Made by a program: the position numbers
In this document: one piece after another, positions 45,001 through 48,000 of the stretch
How positions within the stretch are numbered: position 1 is the stretch's first letter
How the letters are laid out: each line of letters opens with the position of its first letter
Source: a virus
Direction: 5' to 3' (one strand)
Virus record (IMG/VR): IMGVR_UViG_3300045988_173421
Coordinates: 1 to 53,326 of that record
DNA length: 53,326 nucleotides

Positions 45001-48000
45001 ACTTTGTTTTTAATGACTTCCTGCACATCAATTTCACTATTAAATGTGTTTCTGTTTGCCCAAATCATTTCAAGATGAACGGCTTGCTTTTGGATTTCAC
45101 TAGCATGCCCAACAATGTAATTCAGCTGATACTGGGAGTACCCCAGCGGATATTTTTCTTTGAAACCGGCCGCCCATGCTTCTAATGTTCCTTTGCTCAT
45201 TTCAAAACCTCCTTGATTGTGGTCGCTAGTAGAACTATTCAGTCTCTTCGATAGGCTCATATCCATATGCTTTAACCATTTTATTTCCACCTAGTTTCCA
45301 CAGCCTAACCCGTTCTCGATTACAAAATTCACAGCATCCCTCACCAGCAAAGGTATAACCGCTACAACGACAAACTACTATTTCTCCCTGATCAATCTGA
45401 TCTAACTTTGCTTCAACATTCGCTATAATAGACCTGAAATCTTGTTTATTTAAGCGGATAGTATTTGTGATTGAGCGACGATCATACACCTGTTTTGTCG
45501 AAGTCTTAATCACAAATACAGGTTCATTATTATTGCCGGTAAACATAGATACTGTTAAATTGTCATGTTCAAGTTCGCTTGGTTTATGTTTTAAAGGGTG
45601 AGGTTTATGTTTTAACAAGTTTTTTCTAAATACTTCCATTCAGTTTCCCTCCTTTGTATCCTCCATTAGTTTACTTTTCTTTAATCTGAATTAGCGCCAC
45701 ATTGTCTACAGGTATTAACTCAATTGAACCCGACCCAACATGATTGATAAGAGAGACTTCCTTTTCTTTTTTGAAAGCTTCACTATAAAGTACTCGCTGA
45801 TCTTCTAAAGTAGTATCCGGAACGTCAAGACTCACATTCATTCCGTTTTTCAAATATACTGTCACTGTGACTGTCATCCTATTTTCCTTCTTTCTTTTTT
45901 TCTGCTAATGCTCCACTTACATGAACTGCACACAGCCTTCTTCGCTTGCTAATTCAAAAGCTTTTTTAAAGTTCAAGTACGTTTCAAAATCATATTCGTC
46001 TAACTTCTCTCTCGCTGTTTCTTCCAAATCACTAAAATCCTTCGCCAGTTTCTTGGAGACGATCGGACCAATAAATCCTTCACAGTCGGAAAACATGATT
46101 AGCTCGAATAATTGTGAGTTTGATGCTATATTCTCCAATTTCTCTCTGAAACGGTTGTAATACGAGTAAGCTCCCGCTCTAAATCTAAGAGAATCGTCAG
46201 GAGAATAAACACCAGCTACTAGCCCTTGTGTCCGGCCTTTAAAATACTGTTCTGTATAATCAAGTGTTGATTGATCAATTTCTACAAGGTTTTCCCAATC
46301 TACTAGACCTCCGTCTACGTCTCTTTCTGGATAAGCTACTTTTTTCATTTTCTTATACGCTTCAATATCTAATCCCATTTTCAATCCTTCTTTCTCAATT
46401 CATCTACTGTAATATCAAGTGCATCTGCTATTTTGCATACAAGTTCAAATCTCGGGTCTTTTATGTTTCCAGTCATAAGCTTTGTCATGTGTCCAGTTGA
46501 AACGTTAATTTTCTTCGCCAAACGGTACTCTGTCATCTCTTTTTCCTTGAGTCGCTCATTTATACGTCTGATACTTAACATCTCTTACAGCTCCTTTCGT
46601 GCTGTTTTACACTAACTTATTTAAATCAGCTATTGCCCCAGTTAGCGGAGCTTTTCTAAATCAGTCGACTTCACGAAGGAGCCGTTGATCATTTCTCCTG
46701 TCCGATTCTTTATTTCGTCATATGCACAATTTACGCACTCATATAGGTTCATGTCATTCTGCATTGCTAAGATGATCAATGTCACGACTGTATCGCCAAT
46801 TCCGTCACGCAAAGAAGCGCGGTCACTACGAACGATCGCCGCAGCAACCTCGCCAAGTTCTTCCATCACTTTCAACATTTGCTTGCTAGAATCAGCAGTG
46901 TCTAATTCTTTGTCTTTAGCCCATTGCTCAATTTTTTCAATCAGTTCATTCAAAATACTGTTCTCCTTTTACGCTACATATTTTTCGTGTTCTAGTTTCA
47001 AGTCTGATCCCGACGTGTCGATGTATTGAAGCGTTGTGTCCACATCTGTGTGTCCGAGAAATCGCCGCACATCGTTCAGGCTCATTCCTCTTTTCAGTGC
47101 TAAGGTTGCGGCAGTTCTCCGAAACTTATGTGGATGAACATGCGTCACGCCAGCACGTTTTCCAATTTCTTTGACCATCTTCTGAATACCGTTGCTAGTC
47201 ATAGCTGTTCCCACTCCGTGTAATCCACACAGGATAGGTCCTTCTGAATGCGGCTTTATCACAAGATAATTATCAATAGCCACTTTGGCACGCGCATTGA
47301 CGAAAACAACCCTTTCCTTGTTGCCTTTTCCGATCACAGTGATGGTTCCCCGTTGCTGATCATAGTTTTCCATCGTCAACATAGTCAGCTCTGTAACTCG
47401 GCAGCCTGTCGATAACAAGAGTTCGAATGTTGCTTTCTCTTTCGGCTTCCGACAAGCATTTCGCATCAGTTCTACTTCGACTGGCGTAAAGGCTTTTTTT
47501 AGTCGTTTTTCGACTTTGATCTTCTCAACCCTTCGTCCGGGATCCCTGCTAATGTATTCTTCTTCAAAGAGCCATTTAAAGAATCGACAGATTGCACCGC
47601 GTTCTCTATCTAAAGTTGCTGATGATAGATGATCATTCATTTCTCTATTCGCAATGTAAAGACGTATATCATTCGTGGTCACATCGTTAAATGATACTCG
47701 TACCCATCGATTAAATTTATCTATCGTTCGCATCGCCAGATTGATCGTTCCAGGCGAAAGACCGCGAAGTTTCATACTCACAAAATATTGCTTGTATGCG
47801 GCAATGTCAGAAGTTTCATCGTAGATGATCACATCTCGACATTCTTCTTCGAGTCGTAATTTTTCTAGGTTGATTGTTAAAACAATTTTCAGTTTTCTAA
47901 GTTGCTTTGCTTCAAGTTCGGGCTCCATGTTCCTGACAACAGCATTAATAAATTGCTCTTTCAATTCCATGATTACCACCCTTTCAAAGGTCAGCTCACA

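What the first reader, a model, noticed from the sequence alone, without database searches (positions are those of the whole stretch)
46969..47979. Extra Xer-like tyrosine recombinase inside the replication/early module
- A full catalytic R-K-H-R-H-Y complement is present, in an operon with the DnaD-like replication protein, DUF1064 nuclease and LexA-like wHTH protein. This is far from the lysogeny integrase.
- It could resolve replication multimers (the phage-plasmid or N15/P1 style), act as a DNA invertase, or be a relic of another element.
- Combined with the ParA-like gene, it raises the possibility of an extrachromosomal lifestyle.
Basis: partly seen in the sequence, partly recalled or inferred. 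Interest (0 to 1): 0.55.

Follow-up and report, generated by a model that had tools for sequence, protein, structure and literature searches.

The report
Extra Xer-like recombinase in phage early operon
A temperate Enterococcus avium phage carries, besides its normal integrase, a second, intact and strongly conserved Xer/Cre-type DNA recombinase inside its early replication operon; I could not find its DNA target, and it does not indicate a plasmid lifestyle.

Summary
ORF 46969-47979(-) is a real tyrosine recombinase gene (true start ATG 47970, 333 aa). It has the full R-K-H-R-H-Y set and lies inside the YqaJ/RecT/DnaD/DUF1064/LexA-wHTH early operon.

The window is a complete circular assembly (55-nt terminal overlap) of an Enterococcus avium temperate siphophage. 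A separate classical integrase (8027-9244) inserts this phage into the 3' end of pgi; integrated copies, still carrying the ParA-like gene, lie in multi-megabase chromosomes. No ortholog occurs on 72,556 plasmids. The "extrachromosomal lifestyle" idea is therefore not supported.

The gene is not a relic: dN/dS is 0.03 and the catalytic residues are invariant. It is a "simple" recombinase with no arm-binding domain and falls below the XerA/C/D cut-offs. Orthologs occur only in E. avium-group prophages, always at the distal end of otherwise different replication modules.

The nearest annotated relatives (30-32% identity, same N-terminal extension) are the hsdS-shuffling recombinases of phase-variable Type I restriction loci. 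The window has no hsdS gene, no lox/dif-like site, no conserved linked site and no inverted repeats, and no inversion appeared among about 45 related loci.

Best guess (about 0.3): Cre/Xer-type core-site recombination during early lytic growth. It is a known kind of puzzle and of modest interest.

The parts
46969..47970 (-). REC2: 333-aa 'simple' Xer/Cre-type tyrosine recombinase. It has a two-helix N-terminal extension, a SAM-like core-binding domain and a catalytic domain with R191, K218, H281, R284, H307 and Y316. The maximal ORF reaches GTG 47979.
47991..48487 (-). Two small genes just upstream of REC2: o69 (47991-48200) and o96 (48197-48487, phrog_5224). Function unknown. They travel with REC2 in part of the clade only.
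48474..48734 (-). 86-aa LexA_DNA_bind winged-helix protein. A homolog recurs upstream of REC2 in several lineages and is directly adjacent in L045 and L047. Possible accessory DNA-binding factor (inferred).
48731..52305 (-). Replication/recombination genes of the same operon: DUF1064 (48731-49141), an 87-aa ORF (49138-49401), DnaD-like (49379-50332), RecT (50376-51305) and YqaJ exonuclease (51307-52305).
46381..46953 (-). Downstream genes: MazG-like pyrophosphatase (46642-46953) and a 66-aa XRE-type HTH (46381-46581). The HTH gene often follows REC2 in relatives. The block shared among E. avium prophages ends right after MazG, near 46632.
8027..9244 (+). Int1, the lysogeny integrase (405 aa, Phage_int_SAM_3 + Phage_integrase). 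In integrated copies it lies directly next to the host pgi gene.
9362..9427 (.). attP core: about 65 bp identical to the 3' end of host pgi. Identity between the window and integrated prophages ends at about 9427.
5489..7590 (+). ParA-like ATPase (AAA_31; probable start 5681) plus 130-aa and 227-aa partners in the lysogeny module. The trio is also present in chromosomally integrated copies.
40236..40775 (-). ArpU-family late-gene activator. This shows that REC2 is not the late regulator of this phage.
1..55 (.). 55-nt exact overlap with 53272-53326, the signature of a circular assembly. The unit genome is 53,271 bp.

Best explanation
REC2 is an active, stand-alone, 'simple' tyrosine recombinase of the Xer/Cre/hsdS-invertase type, with no arm-binding domain. 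It is transcribed with the early replication and recombination genes of a temperate E. avium siphophage. That phage integrates through a different, classical integrase into the 3' end of pgi.

Shown: the gene is intact, strongly constrained and catalytically complete. It is accessory: it sits at the distal end of at least five different replication-module types, and the module type closest to the window's (YqaJ-RecT-DnaD-MazG, 57-71% identical proteins) occurs without it. It is not the integrase and not the late-gene regulator. It is not linked to a plasmid state.

Inferred mechanism: a homotetramer carries out conservative recombination, with no directionality control, between two short (about 30 bp) core sites, as Cre does.

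Inferred role, the one I commit to at about 0.3: during early lytic growth or infection it processes phage DNA topology. It would monomerise or unlink circles made by theta replication and RecT recombination, or circularise terminally redundant incoming genomes. The target site remains unidentified.
For: - Fold and chemistry: Pfam match; alignment to XerD with all six catalytic residues; AlphaFold model with pLDDT 76, whose best Foldseek matches are XerA 5hxy and XerD 1a0p.
- Family conservation: the catalytic residues are kept in 153-160 of 160 family sequences.
- Selection: dN/dS is 0.034 at 97% protein identity with dS about 1.
- No arm-binding domain: only two N-terminal helices precede the core-binding domain.
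- Position: always on the same strand at the end of the replication module, whether that module is built on YqaJ/RecT/DnaD, AAA (Sak4-like?)/RusA-like/SSB, putative Erf-like/RusA-like/SSB, or DnaD/DnaC-like genes.
- No promoter or terminator of its own.
- A separate Int1 and attP account for integration, and a separate ArpU accounts for late-gene control.
- Published phage genomes report similar extra Xer-like recombinases co-transcribed with lytic genes and propose dimer resolution, without tests (PMC9703825, PMC6669507, PMC3335513).
Against: - A Cre-like or resolution system normally keeps its site next to the gene. Here, homology between REC2 loci on different backbones stops about 20 bp upstream (the ribosome-binding site) and at the stop codon.
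- There is no island of synonymous-site conservation inside the gene.
- No dyad-symmetric site lies within 46-49 kb.
- No 13-mer or conserved palindrome travels with REC2 within 10 kb on either side.
- The only shared hairpin (about 52392-52422) also occurs in phage contigs without REC2.
- No dif-like or difSL-like sequence was found (the consensus sequences were recalled from memory).
- The phage already encodes RecT/YqaJ for circularisation, it packages from concatemers (a pac-type terminase is inferred from the Terminase_2/Terminase_3 families), and it lives integrated, so the need for monomerisation is unclear.
Confidence: 0.3

Rival explanations
1. REC2 acts in trans on a site in the host chromosome that is conserved in the E. 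avium group, such as a host inverton, a restriction-specificity shufflon or dif. It would reprogram or disable a host function early in the lytic cycle.
For: - No linked phage site exists although the protein is extremely conserved on mosaic backbones.
- Orthologs are confined to one host clade, the E. avium-group enterococci.
- The nearest annotated relatives act on cellular loci: hsdS shufflons on E. faecium, Lactococcus and L. salivarius plasmids, and next to HsdS-domain ORFs in Collinsella and Akkermansia.
- Recombinases of that general kind are shown experimentally to drive inversion and excision-reintegration (PMC6265443); homology of that protein, TvrR, to REC2 was not tested here.
Against: - No host target was identified; host genomes could not be scanned with these tools.
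- REC2 is only 30-32% identical to the hsdS recombinases and forms a separate clade.
- I know of no precedent for an early phage gene of this kind.
- Switching a restriction specificity gene would act too slowly to protect an infecting genome (inference).
Confidence: 0.15
2. REC2 is a DNA invertase or shufflon recombinase that flips a segment of the phage genome, for example to switch host range or regulation.
For: REC2 has the same domain architecture as the hsdS invertases and aligns with them over its full length, including the N-terminal extension. Distant phage homologs lie between the tail-fibre and holin genes in TPELB_ph1 and phiCp-D.
Against: - The window holds no convincing inverted-repeat pair. 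The best, 39552-39577 / 40807-40832, looks like terminator or promoter sequence (my reading), and the related loci that share the ArpU region keep it in the window's orientation.
- No HsdS-like ORF was found.
- No inverted segment of 100 bp or more appears in about 45 related loci that together cover nearly the whole genome.
- No inverted repeats lie near the clostridial homologs either.
Confidence: 0.12
3. REC2 has a role that is not classical two-site recombination: an architectural or regulatory DNA-binding protein (like the recombinase-fold repressor YopR/MrpR of SPbeta, which I recall from memory), or a site- or structure-specific nickase or topoisomerase that serves replication.
For: No pair of sites was found. 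The gene sits in a replication module, often next to small HTH or wHTH proteins. Tyrosine recombinases share their chemistry with type IB topoisomerases (established knowledge).
Against: The nucleophile Tyr and the whole RKHRH set are conserved across all orthologs. That argues for catalysis and so against a purely regulatory role. Nothing here directly supports nicking.
Confidence: 0.1
4. REC2 is a second integrase, an element-mobilising recombinase (alternative attachment site, satellite or cassette capture), or part of a plasmid-prophage maintenance system working with ParA.
For: ParA-like genes lie in the lysogeny module. Phage-plasmids such as phiCp-D (ParM) and B83 carry Xer-like genes (PMC6669507). 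Circular assemblies of this phage exist: the window itself and L034.
Against: - REC2 has no arm-binding domain.
- It is not next to any att-like site and has no terminal repeats around it.
- It is transcribed with lytic early genes, not with cI, int or parA.
- Integration at pgi is fully explained by Int1.
- Integrated copies lie on large chromosomal contigs, up to 3.5 Mb.
- No plasmid in PLSDB carries an ortholog.
- REC2 occurs alongside at least four unrelated Int types.
Confidence: 0.07

Closest known systems
hsdS-shuffling tyrosine recombinases of phase-variable Type I R-M loci (annotated 'xerA' by PGAP), e.g. on E. faecium pW142 and L. cremoris pJM2A
   Same: Both are about 330 aa and align with REC2 over residues 2-333, including the roughly 55-aa N-terminal extension that XerC/D lack. 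Both have the full catalytic set and are stand-alone 'simple' recombinases.
   Different: Identity is only 30-32% and they form a separate clade. They sit between inverted hsdS genes. REC2 has no hsdS, no inverted repeats and no R-M genes nearby, and it lies in a phage early operon.
XerC/XerD, XerS and XerA chromosome-dimer resolvases
   Same: These give the best sequence and structure matches: XerA_Arch 196 bits, XerC 160, XerD 148, and Foldseek XerA 5hxy and XerD 1a0p. The active site and two-domain core are the same.
   Different: REC2 scores below every curated cut-off (220, 335 and 330 bits). It is phage-borne, has an extra N-terminal extension, and has no dif-like site in the window.
Cre/loxP of phage P1
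   Same: Both are simple phage-encoded tyrosine recombinases that are not the integrase. The proposed role in circularisation or monomerisation is analogous.
   Different: Cre has an adjacent 34-bp dyad site and serves a plasmid prophage. REC2 has no adjacent or linked site, and its phage integrates into the chromosome. Structural similarity to Cre is weaker than to Xer proteins.
Unexplained extra Xer-like recombinases of other Firmicutes phages: phIS3501 p22 next to ArpU, Tyrovirus gp19/gp50/gp175, Perkons, the Lactococcus 949 group, B83 ORF2/33, phiCs5676-1, TPELB_ph1 and phiCp-D
   Same: In each case a second or third tyrosine recombinase lies outside the lysogeny module, in several cases co-transcribed with lytic genes, and its role is unknown or only speculated (PMC3335513, PMC9703825, PMC6669507).
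   Different: Their genome positions differ (structural module, tail/lysis junction, next to ArpU). Some have a putative adjacent dyad site (Tyrovirus gp50) or plasmid genes. Sequence identity to REC2 is 34% or less where measured.

Membership tests
Tyrosine recombinase superfamily (Pfam PF00589) | Catalytic R-K-H-R-H/W-Y set in a C-terminal catalytic domain, plus a helical core-binding domain | tested here: met
   Pfam 1e-27 plus SAM_4 and SAM_1. XerD alignment gives R191, K218, H281, R284, H307 and Y316. The AlphaFold model matches XerA, XerD, lambda Int and Cre.
XerC/XerD/XerS/XerA orthologs (chromosome dimer resolution) | Score above the curated equivalog cut-off | tested here: not met
   XerA_Arch 196 bits against a cut-off of 220; XerC 160 against 335; XerD 148 against 330; XerS 82 against 267.
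XerC/XerD/XerS/XerA orthologs (chromosome dimer resolution) | A cognate dif-type 28-31 bp site | tested here: not met
   No match with up to 3 mismatches to a Firmicutes dif consensus or to difSL, both recalled from memory. No dyad site lies near the gene.
XerC/XerD/XerS/XerA orthologs (chromosome dimer resolution) | Activation by FtsK, or a partner recombinase | not testable with these tools
   This needs biochemistry or genetics.
Lysogeny (arm-type) phage integrase | N-terminal arm-binding domain; gene next to attP in the lysogeny module | tested here: not met
   The N-terminus is two helices plus a linker, with no arm-type domain hit. attP (about 9362-9427) adjoins Int1, not REC2. REC2 is in the early lytic operon.
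hsdS-shufflon (phase-variable Type I R-M) recombinase | Full-length homology, including the N-terminal extension | tested here: met
   30-32% identity over residues 2-333 to the 'xerA' genes flanked by hsdS genes. HsdS-fused relatives cover REC2 residues 3-332.
hsdS-shufflon (phase-variable Type I R-M) recombinase | Located among inverted hsdS genes or half-genes that carry inverted repeats | tested here: not met
   No HsdS-like ORF in six frames. No HsdS ORF in any Enterococcus REC2 locus. No suitable inverted repeats. REC2 falls in a separate clade.
Cre/lox-type or res-type multimer resolution or circularisation system | A single dyad-symmetric core site linked to the recombinase gene | tested here: not met
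   Searches found no adjacent, internal or co-travelling site.
Cre/lox-type or res-type multimer resolution or circularisation system | Recombinase-dependent monomerisation or circularisation of the replicon | not testable with these tools
   This needs mutants and analysis of DNA topology.
Phage-plasmid (P1/N15-style extrachromosomal prophage) | Prophage maintained as an episome: plasmid replication and partition genes, no chromosomal junctions | tested here: not met
   Prophage-host junctions at pgi in 4 of 5 places. REC2-bearing copies lie on contigs up to 3.5 Mb. No ortholog on PLSDB plasmids. A ParA-like gene is present but is also present in the integrated copies.
Protelomerase (N15 TelN type) | Large (more than 450 aa) enzyme with a telRL palindrome and a linear hairpin-ended prophage | tested here: not met
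   REC2 is 333 aa and Xer-like. The genome assembles as a circle and integrates. No long palindrome was found.

The most novel reading that the evidence does not exclude
REC2 is an early-expressed phage recombinase whose substrate is not on the phage. It would target a conserved site, or set of invertible sites, in the E. avium-group host chromosome, so that infection or induction rewires a host locus (for example a phase-variable defence or surface system, or dif) by site-specific recombination. This would explain why the protein is under very strong constraint and confined to one host clade while no DNA site travels with the gene across mosaic phage backbones.
Probability: 0.12. Interest if true: 0.8.

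Novelty: new member of a known kind. Interest (0 to 1): 0.35.

Why it matters
Extra Xer-like recombinases outside the lysogeny module recur in phages of Bacillus, Clostridium, Lactococcus and now Enterococcus, and none has a demonstrated function. This case is a clean one to study. The gene is widespread: the identical protein was seen on 380 contigs, including the type strain E. avium ATCC 14025. It is under strong purifying selection, and integration, late-gene control and plasmid maintenance are all accounted for by other genes or ruled out. Comparative data also argue against a site linked to the gene. Finding its substrate would settle whether such genes manage phage DNA topology or manipulate the host. 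For annotation, a second 'integrase' together with a ParA-like gene should not be read as evidence for a phage-plasmid.

Tried and rejected
1. Late-gene regulator in the RinA/ArpU position. Rejected: a genuine ArpU gene lies at 40236-40775 (TIGR01637, 3.5e-32).
2. Relic or pseudogene. Rejected by dN/dS and the conserved catalytic residues. Only a few prophages (L028, L050) carry split copies.
3. Mobile cassette with its own ends. Rejected: homology between contexts ends at the ribosome-binding site and the stop codon, with no terminal repeats.
4. The hairpin GACTTACT-N14-AGTAAGTC at about 52392-52422 as the REC2 site. At first it looked shared by all backbones. I rejected it because it is single-copy, its stems covary (more like an RNA or terminator hairpin), and it occurs in phage contigs without REC2: L133, L135, L138, L139, L142 and L144.
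5. The inverted repeat 39552-39577 / 40807-40832 flanking ArpU and tRNA-Met as an invertible switch. Its arms look like terminator or promoter sequence, and every related locus that shares the ArpU region has the window's orientation.
6. The conserved palindrome at 39925-39952. It belongs to the ArpU/tRNA module, not to REC2.
7. Inverted repeats around the clostridial homologs. None was convincing.
8. HsdS or other shufflon targets in the window. None found.
9. PADLOC defence models for the ParA trio and for REC2. Nothing significant.
10. Pfam survey of neighbours of the non-Enterococcus, non-hsdS relatives. The contexts were heterogeneous with no common partner.
11. The P0121 sister clade with a partly altered active site. 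It is a rare chromosomal gene and was not informative.
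Full report
**What the window is.** Positions 1-55 repeat exactly at 53272-53326. Related prophages read straight through that junction. The window is therefore a complete circular assembly (53,271 bp) of a temperate siphophage.

The phage's forward direction is the window's minus strand. The map is:
- cro-like HTH 519-770(-), with cI-like HTH 828-1262(+) and ImmA 1292-1759(+) on the other side.
- A lysogeny/moron arm containing Endonuclease_NS_2, a ParA-like ATPase (5489-6541) with two small partners, and a classical integrase Int1 (8027-9244).
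- UmuC-like and SRAP genes at 10.6-13.2 kb.
- Lysis, tail, head and terminase genes from 14.8 to 39.1 kb.
- The ArpU late activator at 40236-40775.
- A run of small genes, and then the early operon from 46.4 to 53.2 kb.

The host is Enterococcus avium. The recombinase protein is identical to an NCBI E. avium protein seen on 380 contigs, including chromosomal contigs of 3.5 Mb.

**The observation.** ORF 46969-47979(-) is real. It matches Pfam Phage_integrase (1e-27) and the SAM-like core-binding domains. The annotated GTG lies inside the ribosome-binding site; the true start is ATG 47970, giving 333 aa. Alignment to XerD places R191, K218, H281, R284, H307 and Y316. The gene I call REC2 lies in a tightly packed, same-strand run: YqaJ, RecT, DnaD-like, an 87-aa ORF, DUF1064, LexA-wHTH, o96, o69, REC2, MazG, HTH. 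No promoter or terminator signal exceeds chance.

**Lifestyle.**
- Int1 lies directly next to host pgi and other housekeeping genes in four of five places retrieved. One place (L034) is a circular form like the window.
- Identity between the window and integrated copies ends at about 9427. The roughly 65 bp before that point are the 3' end of pgi, so this is attP.
- The ParA-like trio is present in the integrated copies.
- No protein more than 60% identical to REC2 is encoded on any of 72,556 PLSDB plasmids.

The combination of ParA and a second recombinase is therefore not evidence for an episomal prophage. A transient episome cannot be excluded.

**Is the gene functional?** Yes. The window copy and L011 are 97% identical in protein but only 85% in DNA, with dS about 1 and dN/dS 0.034. 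More distant pairs are saturated at synonymous sites. The catalytic residues are kept in 153-160 of 160 family sequences and in all Enterococcus orthologs examined. The AlphaFold model (pLDDT 76) shows two N-terminal helices (residues 3-32), a disordered linker, and then a canonical core-binding and catalytic domain. The best structural matches are XerA and XerD. There is no arm-binding domain.

**Family placement.**
- NCBIfam scores are highest for XerA_Arch (196 bits), XerC (160) and XerD (148). All fall below the curated cut-offs. REC2 is Xer-like but not an ortholog of these enzymes.
- An exhaustive search found 737 clusters (at 50% identity) with E < 1e-30. Most are about 330 aa and cover REC2 from residue 1-5 onwards.
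- Several relatives at 31-37% identity are fused to HsdS specificity domains.
- In GTDB genomes, many of the 30-38% relatives (Collinsella, Akkermansia, Liquorilactobacillus) lie next to HsdS-domain ORFs.
- The best plasmid hits are 'xerA' genes between inverted hsdS genes of Type I R-M loci on E. faecium pW142 and on Lactococcus and L. salivarius plasmids. Recombinases in such loci are shown experimentally to drive inversion and excision-reintegration (PMC6265443), although homology of that paper's protein to REC2 was not tested here.
- In a neighbour-joining tree the hsdS-associated proteins form their own clade, and the Enterococcus phage proteins form another.
- Orthologs at 52% identity or more occur only in E. 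avium-group enterococci: avium, malodoratus, viikkiensis, devriesei, pallens, alishanensis and relatives.

**Context across relatives.**
- In E. avium prophages the block from YqaJ to MazG is shared among phages that differ in immunity and packaging modules. The shared block ends just after MazG.
- In IMG/VR and GTDB loci, REC2 orthologs (59-97% identity) also close replication modules built from quite different genes. Examples are AAA (Sak4-like?)/DnaD-like/RusA-like/SSB, putative Erf-like/DnaD-like/RusA-like/SSB, and DnaD-like/DnaC-like modules with an additional 273-aa Xer-like gene. These assignments are my reading of the sequences, not Pfam hits.
- The immediate neighbours differ between these loci. 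A LexA-type wHTH gene recurs upstream in several lineages, directly adjacent in two of them, and a small XRE HTH often follows. Neither is universal.
- Phage contigs with a similar YqaJ-RecT-DnaD-MazG module (57-71% identical proteins) but without REC2 exist: L135 and L139.

REC2 is thus an accessory gene with a fixed position.

**Search for a substrate.** All of the following were negative:
- Dyad-symmetric sites with 5-9 bp spacers in the window are mostly terminator-like hairpins or lie far from REC2; none is within 46-49 kb.
- No dif or difSL-like site, using consensus sequences recalled from memory.
- No HsdS-like ORF.
- No convincing inverted-repeat pair.
- DNA homology between REC2 loci on different backbones stops at the ribosome-binding site and the stop codon.
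- No island of synonymous conservation inside the gene.
- No shared 13-mer or conserved palindrome within 10 kb on either side that tracks REC2. The one promising element, a hairpin near 52392-52422 with covarying stems and a conserved GCCGGCAAGC loop, is also present in phage contigs that lack REC2.
- No inverted segment of 100 bp or more in about 45 related loci that together cover almost the whole genome.

**Interpretation.** The firm part is this: REC2 is an active, simple, core-site recombinase of the early lytic programme. It is not the integrase, not the late regulator, not a relic and not a marker of plasmid life.

The mechanistic step is inferred from family chemistry: Cre/Xer-type conservative exchange between two short sites, without directionality control.

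The biological role is uncertain. I put about 0.3 on processing of phage DNA topology (monomerisation, unlinking or circularisation). That is the usual suggestion in the literature for such genes (PMC9703825, PMC6669507), but the lack of any linked site counts against it.

That same absence, together with very strong protein conservation and restriction to one host clade, keeps a host-directed role alive (about 0.12-0.15). Inversion within the phage (about 0.12), a non-recombination role (about 0.1) and a second-integrase or plasmid role (about 0.07) are less likely.

**Novelty.** Extra Xer-like recombinases outside lysogeny modules are already described, but unexplained, in several Firmicutes phages (PMC3335513, PMC9703825, PMC6669507). 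This is a new and well-delimited member of that known puzzle, so its interest is modest unless the host-target reading proves true.

Noticed in passing
window 1-55 and 53272-53326: An exact 55-nt terminal overlap. The window is a circularly closed assembly (53,271 bp) of the whole phage genome, and related prophages read across the junction.
   Followed up: yes
window 9362-9427 (attP core), beside Int1 8027-9244: The phage carries a copy of about 65 bp of the 3' end of the host pgi gene. Integrated copies have Int1 next to pgi, so the phage integrates into the end of pgi and restores it.
   Followed up: yes
window about 52392-52422 (minus strand); also L011, L020, L025, L027, L040 and L133-L147: A conserved hairpin at the head of the replication/recombination module. 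An A-run precedes an 8-bp stem that covaries between phages (GACTTACT, GCTCACT, CTCACT, CTGAAC), and the loop (C/A)GCCGGCAAGC is conserved. On the opposite strand it reads as a terminator. It could be a nut-like or RNA regulatory element. It is independent of REC2.
   Followed up: partly
window 39829-39903, 39659-39731 and 14357-14428 (minus strand): A tRNA-Met gene and two weaker tRNA-like elements (Rfam 45.8 and 38.6 bits; ARAGORN calls the one at 14357-14428 with an odd anticodon and does not call the one at 39659-39731). The first two lie between ArpU and the terminase genes.
   Followed up: partly
window 4360-7590 (+): Endonuclease_NS_2, a ParA-like AAA_31 ATPase, and 130-aa and 227-aa proteins in the lysogeny arm, conserved in integrated prophages. 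There is no PADLOC match. The role (partition of a transient episome or defence) is unknown. One relative (L033) has an ISL3 insertion here.
   Followed up: partly
window 10648-13230 (+): A UmuC/Y-family polymerase-like gene and an SRAP (SOS-response-associated peptidase) gene lie between attP and the lysis module, on the strand opposite to the late genes. They look like cargo genes for DNA-damage tolerance.
   Followed up: no
L024, L025, L026, L028 (IMG/VR Enterococcus phage contigs): These phages carry two Xer-like genes in the early region: a 273-285-aa gene directly before the DnaD-like gene and the 343-aa REC2 ortholog at the end of the module. No RecT or Erf-type gene was seen in the stretch examined.
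   Followed up: no
window 39552-39577 and 40807-40832: A 26-nt inverted repeat (88% complementary) flanks the 1.2-kb segment that holds ArpU and tRNA-Met. The arms look like terminator or promoter sequence, and all related loci that share the ArpU region have the same orientation.
   Followed up: partly
window 43277-43298 and 43490-43511: An exact 22-nt direct repeat (TCTCACACCTACACTTTCTCGA) covers the ribosome-binding sites and starts of two adjacent small genes. It is probably a boundary sequence used in module exchange.
   Followed up: no
window 44062-44098 and 44189-44716 (+): A DUF308-type membrane protein gene sits on the opposite strand inside the early/middle region. It is preceded by an operator-like palindrome (CTATGTGATCA...TGATCACATAG) and followed by a terminator at 44713-44742.
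   Followed up: no
window 28053-28538 (+): A small opposite-strand ORF lies between the tail-assembly genes and the tape-measure gene. At the same position, related prophages carry an opposite-strand DUF2513 gene that is present in some and absent in others. Homology between the window ORF and that gene was not checked.
   Followed up: no
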